Shown piece after piece: positions 40,753 through 46,224 of a stretch of 64,000 nt of DNA. The first letter of the stretch is position 1. Every line of letters starts with the position of its first letter. The translations under genes were made by a program, and so were the position numbers. Source of the DNA: Shigella phage Ag3; the sequence record FJ373894. One strand, given 5' to 3'. The notes under the pieces were generated by a model. That model made no database searches, was not told where the DNA came from, and was given only the letters and a program-made list of their open reading frames with translations.

Positions 40753-40985
40753 GATGGGATTGAAACTTCCTCGCGCGTTATTTTATTATACTATCACTCG
40801 CTTCACTGCGTTCCGCTCGGATAACACCGCCTTGACAGGCAGTCCCATTCCACAGCCATGGAGGCTGCTTTTCGTTGTTCGTTAACACTCACAACTCAAA
40901 GGGCACAGCGATACGATACAGTCTCTGAGTGGTGTAGAAAAGTAGTTTTTGCCTATTAATAAACCGCGCTCCTATTTGTTGGCCT

Positions 40986-41015
40986 TTAATTCAATAACAC
41001 CTTCACCAATATAAT
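40986..41015 (+). promoter_or_regulatory. sigma70-like promoter candidate
   Basis: TATAAT at 41010..41015; weak -35 TTAATT 18 nt upstream. Confidence 0.3.
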
Positions 41016-41051
41016 AGTGCGGTCAATTAACCATATATTAAGGAACCTCTC

Positions 41052-41624
41052 ATGCACATCAACACTGCTATCACGAAACACATCATTCCTTTGTTAGAGA
41101 AATATGAAGGGAAGAAATCAAAGGATATTTCGTTTGAAGATATATCCGCCGAAGTGAAGCGCTTGACACGTAAAGAAGTCAATTTCCGCCGTGTTCCCCC
41201 ATCTGCAGTAGATCGGGCAAAGTCAGATTTGAACACGGCTTCCACTTTCTCCTTTAATATCGATGCCACGGCGACATTGGTATCCGAATTAACGCAGTCG
41301 TCACAAGCCCGTCGCGATCGCTTCCGCCATTTATGTGTGGCCAACGACTATCCTAGCACCCGTGTCGGCATCAAGCTTGAAGCAATCCGCTCCGAGGTGT
41401 GCTTCACAGTGAACTATATCCTGGAGCCTGAAACCAGCAACATTTATTTCGCAGCCATCATCGGCTTCTATGGTACATCCATTAATGGTTGGGCTGAGCG
41501 CGTTGAATTAAAAGAGACTCTGAACAAACACAGCATCCCGTCCACCCATTATATGTCGCTCGCAGCCGCCCGTGAATATGTGTATCTGCTCGAGCGTGAT
41601 GTGAAGTTAAAAGTGGTAAAATAA
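41052..41624 (+). CDS. hypothetical protein (190 aa)
   Basis: AAGGAA RBS; TATAAT-like hexamer 41010..41015 upstream. Confidence 0.5.
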   Translation: MHINTAITKHIIPLLEKYEGKKSKDISFEDISAEVKRLTRKEVNFRRVPPSAVDRAKSDLNTASTFSFNIDATATLVSELTQSSQARRDRFRHLCVANDYPSTRVGIKLEAIRSEVCFTVNYILEPETSNIYFAAIIGFYGTSINGWAERVELKETLNKHSIPSTHYMSLAAAREYVYLLERDVKLKVVK

Positions 41625-41681
41625 CGCTTTATTCAATACAGAATTGCAGTAAAGTTAGTTGCATGGAAGGGAGGGAACACT

Positions 41682-41828
41682 ATGTTTTACATGATGTTGC
41701 TCCTCATCCTCCTGATCGGGATTACCTTTACTCTCCTGGGTCTACCCGATCAGTCCGGTACTCAGTCGCCCACTTCGGCGCATCCGGTTTTGAGTGAAGG
41801 TTCGTCCGCACTGCTGTGGGCAGTGTAG
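41682..41828 (+). CDS. small hydrophobic peptide (48 aa)
   Basis: Manually found; GGAAGGGAGGG RBS; MFYMMLLLILLIGITF. Confidence 0.25.
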   Translation: MFYMMLLLILLIGITFTLLGLPDQSGTQSPTSAHPVLSEGSSALLWAV

Positions 41829-43681
41829 CTCAAAGAGGAGAGGACTTTTCAAATTAGCTGGTCTGTGGTAAAGTATTAAACACGAGGGAAACAGCGCATT
41901 GAGTTAGGCATCTAAAGCCGACCTCACTAATCCCAGTCTCAGGGGCATGCGTGAATAGAGGCGTGACATCCACCTTGCATGGTGTTAGTGGACGCACTGA
42001 CCGTCGGAGAACGAAACTCCCTGTTGTAGCGTGATTAGCTCAGAAATAGAGAGCACCCCGTTGGCAAGTCGACACCAACACATAGGGGAGGTCGGGGGCG
42101 CTAATCTCCATCACGCCGACAACATTATGAGTCTTCATAGAGGGTTCATAATGTTGCGTCAAAGGGCAACAAAGGTTCCTGTTGGTTGAATTAACTTGAT
42201 TCATAGTTCCTGCTGATCTTCCCGGATTCGAAGGAGCACCAACAGGCGAGGCCGGATGCGTAAGTTCCGGCAAATCGATGGCGAGGTGGTGCATTGGTGA
42301 CACGGGGTAGCGCCCAGAAGTGTGGTTCGATTCCACACCCTCGCCAACAAATTAAAGGGTTTTCAATAATGGATTGCAGAGTATAGTTAACCCACTGAAC
42401 GAAAAGCTGTTTGGGCACTAGACAAACACTTCGATGTGAACCCAGGACATGGCGTCTTGTGCTCAAACAGGTTTTCGTTTTCGTTGTGCGTGACTTTGCG
42501 GGTTTTAAGAAACAGACCACAAAAATAAATGCAAACGATGATGTAGTTCTGATGGCGGCGTAATAGCCTATAAGTCAGTGAGGTCTTCCGACTCCTCATA
42601 ACAAAATTCGGCGCACTAAAAATAGGCGGGAGGGTGTGATTAATAAGCTCCCGCCGACATCTGAGAGGGCACTTGATCGAGGTCGGTATCCGCTATACGG
42701 GATGCTGTAAAATGAATCCACGGAGTGTCCTCCCAGATGTGTCTCACAGCGCATCAGTTTGCAGTTATGCAAGCTTCAATAAGTTAAAACGCGCCTCAGG
42801 CGTTATGGGATAAAGCCTTAAACAGTGGAATCCCCAGGGCTGGCAATCCCTGTTAAAGAAGTAGCCGTGTGGGGGTCAGCCCCCACAACGCAAAGTAGAG
42901 TCCTCTGGACGTTGAACTTAACCCAAGGGTTGATTCACATGGTGAACGTTCCCGGCGGCGATAGTACAAGATGAGGGGTCATTGAAGTTCAGAGAACTCT
43001 ACTTTGCGGCAGGTACTGCAAAACAGTGATCATCCTGACAAGCGTGATCACTCTTCGACAAAGCATCGCATCGTGGCCATCAACCACATCCTCGCTCTAG
43101 TGATGAGTGGTGTTATGTTCTGTCGGCCAGCCTCGTTTGGTCCGAGCGTAGAGGACAAGTGCTGAAGTGTGACGAAGACACTGAAGTGCGGGTTGTTTAG
43201 TGAATCCTGCTAAGCGCAAGGGTTGAGTGGCAAGAAACACCTGAGGATAAGTCAACGCCATTATTCGCCATGATAATGGCATCGGGAGGCACCCGACGCT
43301 AAACCGTTTGGCCTGACGAAACAGGCAAGTATCTGGGGTCGATCACCTTATCCTCACCCAGATGCGGGTTGTAGCATGGCTGCAACTCTGATGGCTCTCA
43401 ATATTCCATAATGTGTATCGGTTGTGGATGACAGGTAAATGAGCGGAAAGGCGAGAGCCATCAGAGTTGTGACCAACCCGATCTTGCAAGCCCGTATCCC
43501 TGTATGGTTAAGACTTGCAAGTGGAAAGCCCTGGAAAAATAAACGCCTGTGGTGAGGCTACGGTGCAAGCCAAAGACCCACAGAAGCGCGTTGCCGTGAG
43601 GCGCACAAACAGGCATGCATGAACTGATCATGCACAAACGGGATAAAGGGTTGACAGTCCTTGGTTGGTCACACAATAATT

Positions 43682-43761
43682 TGGAGGATGATGGAAGGGG
43701 TAGACATTCCCTGAGGGGATGGCGGCAGCCGTTGAAGGTTCGAATCCTTCTCCTCCAACCA
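43682..43761 (+). tRNA. tRNA-Ser-like (anticodon UGA), non-canonical
   Basis: Perfect acceptor TGGAGGA/TCCTCCA and T-arm GAAGGTTCGAATCCTTC; long variable arm; C at position 33 and poor D-stem. Confidence 0.4.
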
Positions 43762-43946
43762 AATTGAGGGGCGATAGTTTAAGGGATAGTTGTCCGGACA
43801 GCGAATCCTCATAGAGAACGGCTGGGCGGCCAAACCCAGCAGGTGAGGTGAAAATCCTCAAACCCCGCCAAACATTGTTGGACTGCCAGCAAGCTCCGGT
43901 CTACGGCAGGCGTGATGGGATCGCGGAATTCAAATACCGCCTTGGG

Positions 43947-43956
43947 AGCACCTAAA
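43947..43956 (+). promoter_or_regulatory. late-promoter-like CTAAATAAAC upstream of small ORF
   Basis: About 35 nt upstream of ATG 43989. Confidence 0.3.
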
Positions 43957-43988
43957 TAAACCAGTTGTTCAATAAACAACTGGTGAGT

Positions 43989-44189
43989 ATGATGAAAACG
44001 TTCGGTGATTTTATTGCTGAGTGGGATGGCCTCGCCACCGACAACAAAGAGATTGTCGAGTTTGTTGAAAAGCGAGGTGACAAGTGGGTTGTCCTTGACC
44101 ACACCAAGACGAAGGTTCTTGGTACACATGACACCAAAGCTGACGCTGATGCCCAATTAAGGGCGATTGAAGCGAACAAGCACGGATAA
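43989..44189 (+). CDS. small hypothetical protein (66 aa)
   Basis: ORF track 43965..44189; ATG at 43989 after GGTGAG; CTAAATAA motif upstream. Confidence 0.4.
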   Translation: MMKTFGDFIAEWDGLATDNKEIVEFVEKRGDKWVVLDHTKTKVLGTHDTKADADAQLRAIEANKHG

Positions 44190-44190
44190 A

Positions 44191-44266
44191 GACGATGTAG
44201 TTCAGTCGGTAGAACGGCGGTCTGTTAAACCGTATGTCGCAGGTTCAAGTCCTGCCATCGTCGCCA
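44191..44266 (+). tRNA. tRNA-Asn (anticodon GUU)
   Basis: Cloverleaf by hand: acceptor GACGATG/CATCGTC, loop CTGTTAA, T-arm GCAGGTTCAAGTCCTGC, encoded CCA. Confidence 0.85.
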
Positions 44267-44523
44267 GACAATGGGTGTGAACGAAAGTGAATAGGCACGA
44301 AGTACGCGACCGACAAGCTCCAAGCCTCTGTCCAATAGCCGAACGGAATCTGAAGACGACGATAGTAACGCCCACCAAATTCAGAGTGTAGAGGCTACAG
44401 TAGTGCGCACCTCACGGGTTGCTACACCGGACACTCTGATACAAATCTGCCGCTGCGTGGATTAGCTGAGGAAGGATGGCCGATGTCCTCGAGCGTGGCC
44501 CAGCACGCAGCGGTAGACCAAAT

Positions 44524-44607
44524 GTGAGTGTGGCAGAGCGGTCGAATGCAGGAGACTGTAAATCTCCCCGTAACAGCGCGGTGGTTCGAATCCATCCACT
44601 CACACCA
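44524..44607 (+). tRNA. tRNA-Tyr (anticodon GUA)
   Basis: Acceptor GTGAGTG/CACTCAC, anticodon arm GGAGACTGTAAATCTCC, long variable arm, T-arm GGTGGTTCGAATCCATC, CCA. Confidence 0.85.
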
Positions 44608-44829
44608 AACACAGTAAGCGTTGCAGCCAGCTGTGTATAAAATGGGGTGACTCCACATCGGAAACGATGCCCCAACTTCCAGAAATGGTCGGGCGCAAAG
44701 CCTGTAAAGTTCCAGGAGATCGAACCAGAAGGCACTGGTCGCCAGTTAACCAATCGGCGCTGAGAAGCGCGGGGAGTTGGGCTACGGCAGATCAAATGCT
44801 CAATCGGGTGTGAATCCCGTTCAAATTTC

Positions 44830-44913
44830 GCGGGAGCCATAGGGGTTGGACAGTAGCCGACTGATCATCGGCGACGATCACTGGACAGGTTCGAATCCTG
44901 ATCTCCCGCTCCA
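44830..44913 (+). tRNA. tRNA-like gene, possibly Ile (GAU) or pseudo-tRNA
   Basis: Acceptor GCGGGAG/CTCCCGC, anticodon stem GCCGA/TCGGC with loop CTGATCA, T-loop TTCGAAT; extra base and 12-nt variable region. Confidence 0.35.
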
Positions 44914-44917
44914 AATT

Positions 44918-45006
44918 GGAAGGTTGCCCGAGAGGTTTAAGGGACTCGACTGCTAATCGAGTGGGGCTTTTAGCCCCCGAAGGTTCGAATCCTTCACCTT
45001 CCGCCA
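44918..45006 (+). tRNA. tRNA-Ser (anticodon GCU)
   Basis: Acceptor GGAAGGT/ACCTTCC, D-stem CCC/GGG, loop CTGCTAA, variable arm GGGGC/GCCCC, T-arm GAAGGTTCGAATCCTTC, CCA. Confidence 0.85.
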
Positions 45007-45570
45007 AATTTGCGATCATCGCGGAAATCCCAGACGCGAGTGGAGGCCAGGGTGAAGACTGGCACATGGGCACTGACGGCAAAGGTGTTCTACCTCCTGG
45101 AATTGGGTGGCCTGAATGGTAGGGAAAGCAGCCAAGCGTTGTGGGTTCAACTCCCACTCACCCAGCCCCAGATGGAATGGGTCCATCATCGCAAATCATA
45201 TTTTGGGCGTGACTTCCTGAAGAGTTAGAAGGTGTGCATGCCGACTCTCTCGTAATCGGGTGTTTAGGAAGTTAAGAAAATCGCGGCGAGGATAGTGAAA
45301 TGCAAATAGCTTTCTCTACGCCGACGACTTCAGGTTCGATTCCTGACGCGCTCTCCCATAAGGCAGTACCAGTGCGAAGTGTGTAGTCTTTTCAACCCAT
45401 CCCCATCGATGTGGTATAGCCAGGTAAGGAAACCTGGCTTTCTTTTGCCCCCAGCTTAATGTCTTCTTATCACCCCAAATATGTAATCCTTCGTCGTAGT
45501 TTGTTCAATGATACAAAGGGGTTTAAAATTTAACCGTTAAAACCCCTATCATTGATTTGAGGATACACCA

Positions 45571-46224
45571 ATGCGTAATGTTTCTATCTGGGAAAATACT
45601 GAAGAATGGGAATTGCAGTCCACCCCAACTATAATCCGTATGTTCCAATACAAAGGCAACAAGCGTACTCTGAACGAGTTCTTGTCGCCGAATTATATCC
45701 ATCGCGGCTCCCAGCTCGCTCCGCGTGATCTCAACCAGCCTGGCGAATGCACACCCTTTGATCTCGGCGTGAAGGGGCAGGTTGTCCTTATGGGTTACTC
45801 TAGTATTACCGCCGCCGAAGAGGGCAACGGTCAACCGTTCAAAGTATTCCATACACGCGAACAGGCAATCCATTGGCTGGTCAAAAACTTCTTCTATTTC
45901 TATGGCGATGAAAGCGCAACCCGCCGTTGTCGTAAAGCCGTTTCTATGGACTTCGACGCAGAGAATCGGAAGTACCAGGCCATGGCTCGCGAGTATGAAA
46001 AGAATCTCGTCAAGCCTGTCACTGTGGTTGACAACAAATACGTCGCTGAAGCCCCGCGTCATACAGTGAATATCGTTCCGGCCTGTGAAACGAAAGCGCC
46101 GACACCGCCTACTCCTCCGGTCAGTCGTGTTCTGAATGATCAGGGCGCTCCGGTAAAACAAAAGGCCAAGAAATCGTCATTTGTGGATAACATGATGAAG
46201 TTCCTGCGGTTGTTCGGGAAATAA
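45571..46224 (+). CDS. hypothetical protein (217 aa)
   Basis: GAGGA RBS; hairpin upstream. Confidence 0.55.
   Translation: MRNVSIWENTEEWELQSTPTIIRMFQYKGNKRTLNEFLSPNYIHRGSQLAPRDLNQPGECTPFDLGVKGQVVLMGYSSITAAEEGNGQPFKVFHTREQAIHWLVKNFFYFYGDESATRRCRKAVSMDFDAENRKYQAMAREYEKNLVKPVTVVDNKYVAEAPRHTVNIVPACETKAPTPPTPPVSRVLNDQGAPVKQKAKKSSFVDNMMKFLRLFGK

What the first reader, a model, noticed from the sequence alone, without database searches (positions are those of the whole stretch)
43682..45165. tRNA cluster with canonical and non-canonical members
Asn(GUU), Tyr(GUA) and Ser(GCU) fold into canonical cloverleaves with encoded CCA. Two others are odd: a Ser(UGA)-like gene with C33 and a poor D-stem, and an 84-nt gene with anticodon GAU, a 12-nt variable region and an extra base before the acceptor. 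Further T-arm-only fragments sit at 45141..45165 and 45330..45350. The Ser(UGA)-like gene shares its exact T-arm with Ser(GCU), suggesting duplication and decay or an altered decoding role.
Basis: seen in the sequence. Interest (0 to 1): 0.5.

Follow-up and report, generated by a model that had tools for sequence, protein, structure and literature searches.

The report
Phage tRNA operon with tRNA-like RNAs
This is the tRNA operon of a Vi1-like (Agtrevirus) phage: three ordinary tRNAs, two tRNA-derived genes that probably no longer decode, and several conserved, unannotated, tRNA-shaped structured RNAs, one of which resembles the enigmatic rnaC RNA of phage T4.

Summary
Asn(GUU), Tyr(GUA) and Ser(GCU) are canonical tRNAs (56-76 bits). 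Gene A (43682-43761, 'Ser-UGA-like') and gene B (44830-44913, 'GAU') have a perfect acceptor stem, T arm and encoded CCA, but score below the Rfam tRNA threshold and lack features needed for decoding.

The window comes from an Agtrevirus (Ackermannviridae). Relatives already annotate A as tRNA-Ser/Undet and B as tRNA-Ile, so the genes themselves are not new.

Three things are new:
- The 'T-arm-only fragments' are the T arms of two conserved structured RNAs, E1 (45008-45196) and E2' (45205-45358). Both have strong covariation. E2' has the architecture and operon position of T4 rnaC.
- Nearly everything between the tRNAs is non-coding structured RNA (b6, X, sp2, sp3), tiled head to tail. The one exception is a 65-aa ORF with its leader. 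Several modules end in CCA.
- tRNAs and tRNA-like genes behave as cassettes, gained and lost at CAAAT junctions.

Best reading: A and B are non-decoding tRNA-derived members of a processed polycistronic RNA array. A is a rare recent cassette. B is widespread but dispensable. A functional tRNA-Ile role for B is not excluded, because AUC is over-used by the phage. Expression and charging are untested.

The parts
43468..43673 (+). b6: structured RNA module directly upstream of gene A, closed by an 11-bp helix (43468-43478 with 43663-43673).
   Evidence: RNAalifold on 8 loci including the distant L021 gave 56 pairs, 14 of them with compensatory change. The module is conserved in every Ackermannviridae locus compared.
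43651..43680 (+). Sigma-70-like promoter match, TTGACA-18-AATAAT (11 of 12). Its status is uncertain.
   Evidence: Found by the consensus scan. The -35 box lies inside a b6 hairpin and is not conserved in other genera (TCGAGC in L013). It may therefore be fortuitous.
43682..43761 (+). Gene A: 80-nt tRNA-like cassette, the 'Ser(UGA)-like' gene. It has a 7-bp acceptor, a T arm identical to that of Ser-GCU, discriminator A73 and an encoded CCA. It also has C32, C33, G37 and no real D stem.
   Evidence: ARAGORN structure. Rfam: 24.5 bits on the tRNA-Sec model only. It is found in only two other phages, MK-13 and EspM4VN, at 100% identity, and not at all in IMG/VR. It is precisely absent in ChubbyThor and P46FS4. 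The closed triloop form is favoured by 6.2 kcal/mol.
43768..43870 (+). X: 103-nt conserved cloverleaf-like RNA. It consists of GGGGCG..., a long arm with a CCGG tetraloop, a second arm, a T-arm-like hairpin GAGG-UGAAAAU-CCUC, and a ...CCCC-G-CCA end.
   Evidence: Found in 185 phage records at 85-100% identity and never annotated as RNA. RNAalifold gave 27 pairs, 6 with compensatory change. No Rfam match. The outer helix is ambiguous (GGGG/CCCC or GGCG/CGCC) and invariant.
43992..44189 (+). 65-aa ORF, the only convincing protein gene inside the array.
   Evidence: Matches phrog_3684 (unknown function) at E 1.8e-25. No Pfam hit. Annotated as a CDS in relatives. Homologues occur in 22 IMG/VR loci, including contigs of 320-350 kb.
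44191..44266 (+). tRNA-Asn(GUU), canonical, with encoded CCA.
   Evidence: ARAGORN. RF00005 75.8 bits.
44272..44377 (+). sp2-i: structured module closed by the 7-bp helix UGGGUGU/ACGCCCA and followed directly by CCA-AAU.
   Evidence: RNAalifold; coordinates. The closing helix shows only one-sided changes, so support is moderate.
44381..44439 (+). sp2-ii: hairpin module with the 9-bp stem UCAGAGUGU/ACACUCUGA and inner helices.
   Evidence: the inner pairs G-C/A-U switch to A-U/G-C in 2 sequences. Coordinates.
44446..44520 (+). sp2-iii: 14-bp helix (44446-44459 with 44504-44517) enclosing a hairpin, followed by CCA-AAU just before tRNA-Tyr.
   Evidence: compensatory G-C to A-U and C-G to U-A changes in 3 sequences each. 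Coordinates.
44524..44607 (+). tRNA-Tyr(GUA), canonical type II, with encoded CCA.
   Evidence: ARAGORN. RF00005 57.3 bits. In Kuttervirus ST-W77 the same gene sits at a different place in the backbone, where sp2 and sp3 are contiguous.
44609..44823 (+). sp3: roughly 215-nt structured RNA with GNRA and UNCG tetraloop hairpins.
   Evidence: 89-98% identical across four genera, with 1-2 nt indels that would break any reading frame. RNAalifold gave 59 pairs. The hairpin GCGC-UGAGAA-GCGC varies to GCGU-UACG-ACGC and GCGC-UUCG-GCGC, and UGGGG/CCCCA varies to UGAGG/CCUCA.
44830..44913 (+). Gene B: 84-nt tRNA-like gene with anticodon GAU. It has a 7-bp acceptor, a GGUUCGAAUCC T arm and an encoded CCA. 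It also has C8, C37, U73, a weak D stem, a 12-nt unpaired variable region and one extra bulged base.
   Evidence: ARAGORN -ps80. 21.4 bits on the tRNA-Sec model only. Full length in 45 phage records (Agtrevirus and part of Kuttervirus, including CBA120, where it is annotated tRNA-Ile), and truncated to 37 nt in 27 more. Both stem substitutions seen keep pairing (C to U opposite G). The bulged base varies A/C/U.
44918..45006 (+). tRNA-Ser(GCU), canonical type II, with encoded CCA.
   Evidence: ARAGORN. RF00005 56.0 bits. The predicted MFE structure is the cloverleaf, z = -2.85.
45008..45196 (+). E1: 189-nt structured RNA closed by a 9-bp helix (45008-45016 with 45188-45196). It contains a tRNA-like sub-domain: an 8-bp acceptor-like helix (45103-45110 with 45158-45165) and a T arm at 45141-45157.
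   Evidence: RNAalifold gave 59 pairs. Pair count: 99.2% of cells paired and 15 pairs with change on both sides, against 0-3 in slid controls and 0 of 500 shuffles. The covariance model finds it in 7 loci. Indels of 1, 2 and 7 nt rule out the 72-aa ORF annotated here in ChubbyThor.
45205..45358 (+). E2': roughly 150-nt tRNA-shaped RNA. It has a 7-bp acceptor GGGCGUG/CGCGCUC (45205-45211 with 45347-45353), two long arms, a T arm at 45330-45346 with loop UUCGAUU, and the tail UCCCA. It resembles T4 rnaC.
   Evidence: RNAalifold gave 36 pairs. Pair count: 99.7% of cells paired and 9 pairs with change on both sides, against 0-3 in slid controls. The covariance model R1 finds it in the window and 15 loci at 166-194 bits, one divergent copy in L015 (27.9 bits), and T4 rnaC at 23.5 bits over its full length.
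45418..45447 (+). Intrinsic terminator (8-bp stem, then a T run) that closes the array.
   Evidence: Found by the scan. The stem changes in a compensatory way between genera: GCCAGGU/ACCUGGC, GCCGGAU/AUCCGGC, GCCCGAC/GUCGGGC.

Best explanation
The finding is the tRNA operon of an Agtrevirus phage.

On the + strand, from at least 43468 to the terminator at 45418-45447, lies a head-to-tail array of structured RNA genes. It is interrupted only by a 65-aa ORF and its 121-nt leader. Most other modules are separated by 1-8 nt, and several end in (N)CCA followed by AAU or AAC.

Asn(GUU), Tyr(GUA) and Ser(GCU) are ordinary decoding tRNAs. Asn and Tyr match codons the phage over-uses.

Genes A and B are tRNA-derived cassettes. 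They keep exactly what RNA processing needs: a 7-bp acceptor helix stacked on a canonical T arm, plus an encoded CCA. This is the minihelix that RNase P, 3' trimming enzymes and the CCA enzyme recognise. They have lost what decoding needs:
- A has C33, G37, an anticodon loop that closes into a triloop, and no D stem.
- B has C8, C37, U73, a poor D stem, an unstructured 12-nt variable region and a bulged extra base.

Most likely A and B are transcribed with their neighbours, cut out like tRNAs, and do not act as adaptors on the ribosome. A is a rare, recently acquired cassette and may be neutral or decaying. B is older, widespread and dispensable.

They belong with the other tRNA-shaped, non-decoding RNAs of the same array (X, E1, E2'). 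E2' is the counterpart of T4 rnaC.

Shown here: the gene structures, conservation, covariation, cassette turnover and lack of coding capacity. Inferred: co-transcription, processing by RNase P and RNase E, and absence of decoding.
For: Canonical versus aberrant scores.

Defects in A: the loop CCUGAGG and no D stem. The closed triloop form is 6.2 kcal/mol more stable than the open loop.

Defects in B: read directly from the sequence.

Processing-relevant parts intact: 7/7 acceptor pairs, a GGUUCGAAUCC T arm and CCA in both genes. T-loop motif: 8 observed against 0.59 expected.

A is rare and identical wherever found. It occurs in 2 other phages and in 0 IMG/VR contigs, and it is precisely absent in close relatives.

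B is full length in 45 records and deleted to a 37-nt stump in 27 others, so it is dispensable.

Cassette behaviour: tRNAs and tRNA-like units are present or absent, or placed differently, in an otherwise 85-99% conserved backbone. Junctions fall at CAAAT or CCAAAY. CCAAAY occurs 8 times on the + strand within 43759-45009.

Neighbours are structured non-coding RNAs with compensatory changes: X, sp2, sp3, E1, E2', b6 and the terminator.

No long ORFs in 41650-45570 other than the 65-aa gene.

Precedent: T4 encodes rnaD and rnaC head to tail after its last tRNA. rnaC has a GGUUCGAAUCC T arm and two long arms and is hit by the E2' model.

Codon usage: AAC 36.8 per thousand in the phage against 21.7 in the host, and UAC 22.4 against 12.2, which fits the canonical Asn and Tyr tRNAs. 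UCA is 8.5 against 7.2, so there is no demand for a Ser(UGA) tRNA (host values are from memory).
Against: There are no expression, processing or charging data.

B keeps a regular 5-bp anticodon stem, U33 and an invariant GAU loop in all 8 copies compared. Its two stem substitutions preserve pairing. AUC is the codon the phage over-uses most in absolute terms among the 14 Asn, Tyr, Ser, Ile and Met codons compared, 38.1 against 25.1 per thousand. Many genome records annotate B as tRNA-Ile.

Conservation of B (94-100%) is no greater than that of the flanking spacers, so it shows neither selection nor decay.

Thermodynamic folding is a weak argument: the canonical Asn and Tyr tRNAs also fail to give a cloverleaf as their MFE structure.

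The only promoter-like match is doubtful, so the extent of the transcription unit is inferred.
Confidence: 0.55

Rival explanations
1. B is a working, if unusual, tRNA-Ile(GAU) that supplies AUC/AUU decoding. A might be a Ser(UGA) tRNA.
For: B has the anticodon GAU with U33 and A38, the C29-G41 pair, a regular anticodon stem, and a perfect acceptor, T arm and CCA. AUC is 38.1 per thousand in window ORFs against about 25 in E. coli. ECML-4 and STML-13-1 carry a canonical tRNA-Ile(GAU) (72.7 bits) and lack B, so the Ile function is wanted in this phage family. B is annotated tRNA-Ile in CBA120 and others. ARAGORN calls A at its default threshold.
Against: B has C37, so no t6A37 is possible, and U73 instead of A73. 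It also has C8, G4-C69 and a mismatched 12:23 pair. By established knowledge of E. coli IleRS identity (Nureki et al. 1994, from memory) these are most of the non-anticodon determinants. B additionally has a 12-nt variable loop, a bulged T stem or junction, and scores below 21.4 bits on RF00005. It has been lost in 27 relatives. A has C33, G37, no D stem and A73 instead of the G73 of tRNA-Ser. It is found in only 3 genomes, and UCA is not over-used.
Confidence: 0.2
2. A and B are dead pseudogenes. They are debris of cassette turnover with no RNA-level function, and the tRNA-like parts persist only because the decay is recent.
For: A is rare and identical in all carriers, so it has no evolutionary record. 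B is truncated in many relatives. The locus is highly mosaic and holds other aberrant tRNA-like units: c1 in the window, the Ile-derived 'tRNA-OTHER' in Kuttervirus, and a different odd unit at A's site in pSal-SNUABM-02.
Against: In both genes the defects concentrate in the D and anticodon regions, while acceptor, T arm and CCA are flawless. B's observed stem substitutions preserve pairing, and the only freely varying base is the unpaired bulge. The surrounding non-tRNA modules are clearly under structural selection, so this is not a neutral junkyard.
Confidence: 0.2
3. A, B and the other tRNA-shaped RNAs are decoys or sponges. They could mimic tRNAs to absorb host tRNA-targeting defence nucleases or tRNA-binding factors.
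For: The anticodon regions are altered while the tRNA bodies are retained. Published work shows phage tRNAs countering tRNA-cleaving defences, by title and abstract only: PMC10264068, PMC11464382, PMC11555353. The canonical set (Asn, Tyr) consists of Q34 tRNAs, which are known targets of colicin-E5-type anticodon nucleases (from memory).
Against: No evidence in the sequence points to any particular nuclease. A closed triloop or a C37 loop is not an obvious mimic of a target anticodon loop. A is too rare to be a core counter-defence.
Confidence: 0.12
4. A and B are chance tRNA-finder false positives.
For: Both fall below Rfam gathering scores. B is missed by ARAGORN at its default threshold.
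Against: A 7-bp Watson-Crick acceptor, an exact GGTTCGAATCC T arm and a CCA in the correct register, occurring twice within an array that holds 8 T-loop motifs against 0.59 expected. B is also conserved in 45 genomes.
Confidence: 0.01

Closest known systems
Phage T4 tRNA gene cluster with the small stable RNAs rnaD (species 2) and rnaC (species 1)
   Same: Both are polycistronic phage tRNA clusters. Non-tRNA stable RNA genes follow the last tRNA head to tail, with gaps of 1-6 nt. rnaC has an acceptor-like closing helix, two long arms and a GGUUCGAAUCC T arm, as E2' does. The E2' covariance model aligns rnaC over its full length at 23.5 bits. That search gave E 3.3e-4 over 247 kb and 1.6e-5 over 12 kb, and the alignment includes the same 5' junction CAAAUUAU. 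Neither RNA is in Rfam. The function of rnaC and rnaD is unknown (from memory).
   Different: Sequence similarity outside the T arm and junctions is weak. Ordinary tRNA regions score up to 19.9 bits with the same model, so homology is plausible but not proven. E1 has no counterpart in T4. The array here holds many more non-tRNA modules (b6, X, sp2, sp3, E1), and A and B have no described T4 equivalent.
Phage tRNAs with variant anticodon loops that evade or neutralise tRNA-targeting defences (mycobacteriophage tRNAs; T5 tRNAs against PARIS and retrons)
   Same: These are also phage-encoded tRNA genes that differ from host tRNAs in the anticodon loop or stem (titles and abstracts of PMC10264068, PMC11464382 and PMC11555353).
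   Different: Those tRNAs remain functional decoders with canonical cloverleaves. A and B break near-universal tRNA rules (U33, purine 37, U8, D stem).
tRNA-like processing signals and tRNA pseudogenes (mitochondrial 'tRNA punctuation', the MALAT1 mascRNA, minihelix substrates of RNase P)
   Same: All keep an acceptor/T-arm minihelix with a 3' CCA-type end and no decoding function, placed as punctuation between other RNAs. This comparison rests on established knowledge, from memory.
   Different: Processing of A, B or the neighbouring modules by RNase P has not been shown. This is a bacterial phage context.
GOLLD and ROOL large ornate ncRNAs of phages and prophages
   Same: They are highly structured, phage-borne, of unknown function, and typically sit next to tRNA genes (from memory).
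   Different: No Rfam match to either family anywhere in 40800-45600 at E up to 1-10. The RNA here is built of small, independently closed modules that are shuffled between genomes.

Membership tests
Elongator tRNA (Rfam RF00005) | Covariance-model score at or above the gathering threshold of 29 bits | tested here: not met
   Asn 75.8, Tyr 57.3 and Ser-GCU 56.0 bits all meet it. For A the best clan match is the tRNA-Sec model at 24.5 bits, and for B at 21.4 bits. Any RF00005 match is lower.
Elongator tRNA (Rfam RF00005) | 7-bp acceptor stem, 5-bp T stem with a GTTCRANYC loop, and a 3' CCA | tested here: met
   A has a 7/7 acceptor, a 5-bp T stem and CCA. B has a 7/7 acceptor, a 4-bp T stem (5 bp if one base is bulged) and CCA.
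Elongator tRNA (Rfam RF00005) | 7-nt anticodon loop with U33 and a purine at position 37 | tested here: not met
   A has the loop CCUGAGG, so C33, and C32-G38 plus C33-G37 can close it to a triloop, which is favoured by 6.2 kcal/mol. B has the loop CUGAUCA, so U33 is present but position 37 is C.
Elongator tRNA (Rfam RF00005) | D stem of 3-4 standard pairs, with U8 and A14 | tested here: not met
   A's D stem is drawn by ARAGORN from a G.U, a U-A and a non-standard A:G contact. B has C8, G14 and a D stem with an A.A mismatch (and reading).
tRNA-Ser (type II) | Long variable arm with a helix, and G73 as discriminator (E. coli SerRS identity, from memory) | tested here: not met
   A could form a 3-bp variable stem with a 3-nt loop (CGG-CAG-CCG), but its discriminator is A73. 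Ser-GCU in the window has a 5-6 bp variable arm (5 bp in ARAGORN; 6 bp in the MFE fold) and G73.
tRNA-Ile(GAU) | Anticodon GAU together with A37 (t6A), A38, A73, C4-G69, U12-A23 and C29-G41 (E. coli IleRS identity set, from memory) | tested here: not met
   B has GAU, A38 and C29-G41. It also has C37, U73, G4-C69 and A12.A23. The canonical phage tRNA-Ile of ECML-4 scores 72.7 bits.
tRNA-Sec (Rfam RF01852) | Score of at least 47 bits, anticodon UCA, 8+5 acceptor/T geometry and a 6-bp D stem | tested here: not met
   A scores 24.5 and B 21.4 bits. Their anticodons are UGA and GAU. Many non-standard pairs are flagged in the alignments.
T4 rnaC-like stable RNA (applies to E2', not to A or B) | tRNA-shaped RNA with a closing helix, two long arms and a canonical T arm, encoded as the last gene of a phage tRNA operon | tested here: met
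   E2' architecture and covariation. Position before the terminator. T4 arrangement and rnaC fold.
T4 rnaC-like stable RNA (applies to E2', not to A or B) | Detectable sequence and structure homology to T4 rnaC | tested here: inconclusive
   Model R1 hits rnaC at 23.5 bits, full length, with a rough E of 3.3e-4 over 247 kb or 1.6e-5 over 12 kb. tRNA-containing regions reach 19.9 bits with the same model.
tmRNA (applies to the upstream element at 42186-42654, considered as a possible partner of the tRNA-like genes) | Tag reading frame, plus a tRNA-like domain with G3:U70, plus the Rfam gathering score | tested here: not met
   A tag ORF is present and conserved as a peptide. The score is 29.8 bits against a gathering score of 47. 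ARAGORN calls it only at -ps80, with a weak tRNA-like domain. None of A, B, c1 or E2' has G3:U70 (read).

The most novel reading that the evidence does not exclude
The roughly 3.7-kb non-coding block (41.8-45.4 kb) may be a dedicated phage 'tRNA-mimic' locus. On this reading it encodes a set of non-decoding, tRNA-shaped RNAs (A, B, c1, X, E1, the rnaC-like E2'). It also encodes a widespread tmRNA-like coding RNA that lacks its own tRNA-like domain. Together they would act on host tRNA-handling or ribosome-rescue machinery, for example as decoys for tRNA-targeting defences or as modulators of trans-translation. tRNA and tRNA-like units would be exchanged as mobile cassettes at CAAAT junctions.
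Probability: 0.12. Interest if true: 0.8.

Novelty: new member of a known kind. Interest (0 to 1): 0.45.

Why it matters
Genes A and B are already in GenBank records and in one paper as plain tRNAs (Ser, Ile, even 'Asp'). They are therefore counted in analyses of phage tRNA number and codon compensation. If they do not decode, those counts are inflated for dozens of Ackermannviridae genomes.

More broadly, the work shows that what looks like spacer between phage tRNAs is a set of conserved, covarying, unannotated RNA families. One of them links to T4 rnaC, an RNA whose function has been open for about 50 years. A second, distantly related phage family carrying an rnaC-like RNA gives comparative leverage on that question. 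It also gives concrete targets (X, E1, E2', sp3, b6) for Rfam families and for knock-outs in phages used for biocontrol.

Tried and rejected
- **tRNA-Sec identity for A or B.** The only Rfam hits are to that model, but at 21-24 bits against a gathering score of 47, with the wrong anticodons.
- **A as a decayed copy of Ser-GCU or of the canonical Ser(UGA) of Klebsiella- and Dickeya-type relatives.** Overall identity is 65% and 60%, no better than between unrelated tRNAs.
- **Spacers as small protein genes.** This includes the 72-aa ORF annotated at 45010-45228 in ChubbyThor. It is rejected because of 1, 2 and 7-nt indels and compensatory base-pair changes.
- **The TTGACA-18-AATAAT site as the operon promoter with A at the transcript start.** The site lies inside the conserved b6 structure and the -35 box is not conserved.
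- **A split tmRNA in which a tRNA-like module supplies the acceptor domain for the upstream tag RNA.** No module has G3:U70, and no segment complementary to the putative 5' strand was found.
- **E1 as a counterpart of T4 rnaD.** The covariance model gives no hit.
- **GOLLD, ROOL or YrlA.** No Rfam hits.
- **MFE folding as a test of tRNA-likeness.** It is uninformative, because canonical Asn and Tyr also misfold in silico.
- **Literature searches.** Searches for prior descriptions of these RNAs or of a phage tmRNA-like element found nothing relevant. The T4 genome review could not be retrieved.


Full report
**Source and context.** The 2.3 kb around the finding is 95-97% identical to Shigella phages ChubbyThor, Gloob and MK-13 and to Enterobacter phage EspM4VN. 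All are Agtrevirus, Aglimvirinae, Ackermannviridae. It is 82-88% identical to Kuttervirus phages (taxonomy). The window is therefore part of a Vi1-like virulent myophage genome. Between the 190-aa ORF ending at 41624 and the 217-aa ORF starting at 45571 there is no long ORF. The one exception is a 65-aa gene at 43992-44189, which matches phrog_3684 of unknown function.

**Check of the observation.** ARAGORN at its default threshold finds Ser(tga) 43682-43761, Asn(gtt) 44191-44266, Tyr(gta) 44524-44607 and Ser(gct) 44918-45006. Rfam at gathering threshold accepts only Asn (75.8 bits), Tyr (57.3) and Ser-GCU (56.0).

The 84-nt GAU gene at 44830-44913, here called B, appears only when ARAGORN's threshold is lowered.
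- a 7-bp acceptor followed by a C.T mismatch
- a 4-bp T stem
- a roughly 12-nt variable region without a helix
- the loop CUGAUCA

The Ser(UGA)-like gene, here called A, has the loop CCUGAGG (C32, C33, G37) and essentially no D stem. With permissive Rfam settings, A and B match only the tRNA-Sec model, at 24.5 and 21.4 bits against a gathering score of 47.

The T arm of A is identical to that of Ser-GCU over 17 nt. The T-loop motif GGTTCRANYCC occurs 8 times in the window, all on the + strand within 42324-45343. Shuffles give 0.59.

**Prior annotation.** A is annotated tRNA-Ser in MK-13 and 'tRNA-Undet' (tRNAscan-SE) in EspM4VN. B is annotated tRNA-Ile in MK-13, vB_Hercules_SET, CBA120 and others. 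The EspM4VN paper lists five tRNAs, including 'Ser (TCA)' and 'Asp (GAT)', which are A and B (PMC7283392). Neither the records nor the paper remark on the aberrant features.

**Distribution.** A occurs in only two other phages in the 50,697-record collection. It is 100% identical in both and absent from IMG/VR. In ChubbyThor and P46FS4 it is missing precisely, with its flanks joined. At the same site pSal-SNUABM-02 carries a different odd tRNA-like unit, and Gloob and the Klebsiella-type phages carry tRNA-Met.

B is full length in 45 records, from Agtrevirus and part of Kuttervirus. It is reduced to its first 37 nt in 27 others, for example Det7 and SFP10. Among the 8 copies compared, two substitutions fall in clear helices, and both are C to U opposite G, so pairing is kept. 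The remaining differences lie in the D arm and at the extra base between T stem and acceptor, which varies A/C/U. The anticodon loop is invariant. B's identity of 94-100% is no higher than that of the flanking 'spacers'. It therefore shows neither selection nor decay.

**The 'T-arm-only fragments'.** An alignment of 45197-45362 with eight relatives from three genera, at 72-97% identity, gives a tRNA-shaped RNA, E2' (45205-45358). Its parts are:
- a 7-bp acceptor GGGCGUG/CGCGCUC
- two long arms
- a T arm (45330-45346)
- the tail UCCCA

Counting pairs on that structure gives 99.7% of cells paired. Nine pairs change on both sides, against 0-3 when the 3' partners are slid. The covariation score is reached by 0 of 500 shuffles.

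The other T arm (45141-45157) lies in E1 (45008-45196). E1 is closed by the 9-bp helix AUUUGCGAU/AUCGCAAAU and contains an 8-bp acceptor-like helix around the T arm. It has 59 pairs, 99.2% of cells paired, and 15 pairs with changes on both sides against 0-3 in slid controls. Most of that covariation comes from one divergent genome, L017.

**The 'spacers' are structured RNAs.** The evidence module by module:
- sp3 (44609-44823) is 89-98% identical across four genera. It carries 1-2 nt indels and has hairpins with GNRA and UNCG loops and compensatory changes, for example GCGC-UGAGAA-GCGC, GCGU-UACG-ACGC and GCGC-UUCG-GCGC.
- sp2 (44272-44520) forms three helical modules. Two of them are followed directly by CCA-AAU.
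- X (43768-43870) is a 103-nt cloverleaf-like RNA with a T-arm-like hairpin and a G-CCA end. It is present in 185 phage records, is never annotated as RNA, and has 6 compensatory pairs.
- b6 (43468-43673), just upstream of A, has 14 compensatory pairs, including some in the distant locus L021.
- The array ends in an intrinsic terminator whose stem covaries.

Apart from the 65-aa ORF and its 121-nt leader, most neighbouring modules are 1-8 nt apart (up to about 60 nt before the terminator). CCAAAY occurs 8 times on the + strand in 43759-45009.

**Cassette behaviour.** A blastn map of the region against 30 loci shows a conserved backbone in which tRNA-sized units are present, absent or placed differently.
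- In Kuttervirus ST-W77, sp2 and sp3 are contiguous and Tyr sits further downstream.
- tRNA-Met is inserted right after X in several phages.
- A 76-nt tRNA-like unit lacking an anticodon arm (c1, 42276-42351) is present only in the window, ChubbyThor and Gloob.
- Where junctions were inspected, they lie in CAAAT or CCAAAY.
- In Kuttervirus, the 'tRNA-OTHER' after Ser-GCU has the body of the canonical tRNA-Ile(GAU) of ECML-4 (72.7 bits), but its anticodon arm is replaced by a 30-nt insert.

**Relation to T4.** T4 encodes rnaD and rnaC ('species 2' and 'species 1' stable RNAs) head to tail after tRNA-Arg, at the end of its tRNA cluster. rnaC folds with a closing helix, two long arms and a CCGGG-UUCGAAU-CCCGG T arm. 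Rfam has no family for it.

A covariance model built from the E2' alignment finds E2' in the window and 15 loci at 166-194 bits. It also finds a divergent copy in L015 (27.9 bits) and T4 rnaC (23.5 bits). The rnaC match is full length, with a rough E of 3.3e-4 in the 247-kb search and 1.6e-5 in the 12-kb search. The alignment includes the same 5' junction CAAAUUAU and the inter-arm linker.

Regions containing ordinary tRNAs or B reach 19.9 bits with the same model. The shared architecture and position are therefore firm, while homology is only plausible. E1 has no counterpart in T4.

**What A and B most likely are.** In both genes the acceptor, T arm and CCA are flawless, and the departures from tRNA rules are concentrated elsewhere.
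- A has C33, G37 and no D stem. It has A73 where tRNA-Ser has G73. Its loop is predicted to be 6.2 kcal/mol more stable when closed to a UGA triloop.
- B has C8, G14, C37 (so no t6A37 is possible), U73, a mismatched D stem, an unpaired 12-nt variable region and a bulge.

The identity rules for SerRS and IleRS are quoted from memory of the E. coli literature. The acceptor/T minihelix with a 3' CCA is what RNase P, 3' trimming enzymes and the CCA enzyme recognise (established knowledge). I therefore read A and B as non-decoding, tRNA-derived members of a processed polycistronic array, like their tRNA-shaped neighbours. A is probably a recent, possibly neutral cassette. B is older and dispensable. 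Co-transcription and processing are inferred, not shown.

I took 39 non-overlapping ORFs of at least 150 codons from the window (46 kb) and compared them with E. coli values recalled from memory.

| Codon | Window ORFs (per thousand) | E. coli (per thousand, from memory) |
|---|---|---|
| AAC | 36.8 | about 21.7 |
| UAC | 22.4 | about 12.2 |
| AUC | 38.1 | about 25.1 |
| AGC | 11.4 | about 16.0 |
| UCA | 8.5 | about 7.2 |

This fits codon supplementation by the canonical Asn and Tyr tRNAs. It gives no reason for a Ser(UGA) tRNA. It does leave a motive for a tRNA-Ile(GAU), which is the main argument for the rival view that B still decodes.

**Caveats.**
- All structure evidence is comparative and rests on a few lineages.
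- Covariance-model E-values are rough.
- The only promoter-like match (43651-43680) lies inside b6 and is not conserved, so the start of the transcription unit is unknown.
- No expression data exist.

**Verdict.** The finding is real and correctly described. The genes are already annotated in relatives, so they are not new as such. The interpretation needs revision: A and B are best seen as non-decoding tRNA-like RNAs. The 'fragments' are parts of conserved, unannotated structured RNAs, one of them rnaC-like, within a modular RNA array that exchanges tRNA cassettes.

Noticed in passing
window 42186-42654 (core 42477-42618), + strand: A tmRNA-like coding element. It contains '...AAAAAUAAAU GCA AAC GAU GAU GUA GUU CUG AUG GCG GCG UAA UAG', which encodes ANDDVVLMAA followed by two stops, and then two conserved hairpins. 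Rfam tmRNA_permuted scores 29.8 bits (gathering score 47; E 0.0013). ARAGORN calls a permuted tmRNA only at -ps80, and no convincing tRNA-like domain was found. The tag is conserved as a peptide while its codons vary: ANDNTFLAVA, ANDNAYLAVA, ANDSEVLMAA, ANDNAYLMVA. The core is found in 729 phage records from unrelated groups: FelixO1-like Ounavirinae, Schitoviridae, Klebsiella siphophages, and P1/P7/D6. In the three records inspected (P7, SUSP2, FSL SP-058) it lies next to or inside the tRNA cluster and carries no tmRNA or RNA annotation (no feature under it in most listed records, only 'hypothetical protein' in the rest). In P7 an in-frame stop lies 8 codons upstream with no start codon between, so it is not an ordinary ORF. 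No paper describing it was found.
   Followed up: partly
window 42276-42351, + strand: c1, a 67-76 nt tRNA-like cassette. It has a 7-bp acceptor GGCGAGG/CCUCGCC, a 3-bp D stem and a GUGUGG-UUCGAUU-CCACAC T arm. In place of the anticodon arm there is only a 3-bp stub, and the 3' end reads ACA rather than CCA. It is present only in the window, ChubbyThor and Gloob, and precisely absent elsewhere. It is flanked by a CAAAT repeat and inserted inside the tmRNA-like region.
   Followed up: partly
window 42029-42117, + strand: A weak tRNA match (RF00005 24.2 bits, gathering score 29). It has a good acceptor (GCGUGAU/AUCACGC) and D arm, but an enlarged anticodon region and a degenerate T arm. The predicted fold has z = -1.96.
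   Followed up: no
window 43195-43304, + strand: A sub-threshold match to the Rfam sRNA family STnc100 (33.7 bits, gathering score 47, E 5e-5). The same match reaches 38.6 bits in Gloob. It is present only in the Agtrevirus loci.
   Followed up: no
L003 3499-3587, L008 3072-3160, L012 4226-4314, L007 3006-3094, L010 3856-3944: The Kuttervirus/Agtrevirus 'tRNA-OTHER/Undet' placed 3-7 nt after Ser-GCU. It has the acceptor, D arm and T arm of the canonical phage tRNA-Ile(GAU) of ECML-4, but its 17-nt anticodon arm is replaced by a roughly 30-nt insert (CAGG-AAAGUUUCGAGAGAACAAGGUG-CCUG). Differences between copies are pair-preserving. It is another non-decoding tRNA derivative.
   Followed up: partly
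window 43992-44189 and loci L019, L029: The 65-aa protein embedded in the RNA array (phrog_3684, unknown function) has homologues next to tRNA clusters in contigs of 320-350 kb (jumbo-phage size) and in other metagenomic viral contigs.
   Followed up: no
window 41650-43467: The whole stretch upstream of the finding is also ORF-poor and conserved in blocks across genera: 41650-42275, 42352-42658 and 43018-43196. The non-coding RNA array therefore probably spans about 3.7 kb (41.8-45.4 kb). Structures of these blocks were not analysed.
   Followed up: no
L007 188-664; L036 2754-3419: Homing endonuclease genes sit in or beside the tRNA clusters: an HNH gene in pSal-SNUABM-02 and segB in T4. This is a possible driver of the cassette turnover seen here. 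No such gene lies inside the window's array.
   Followed up: no
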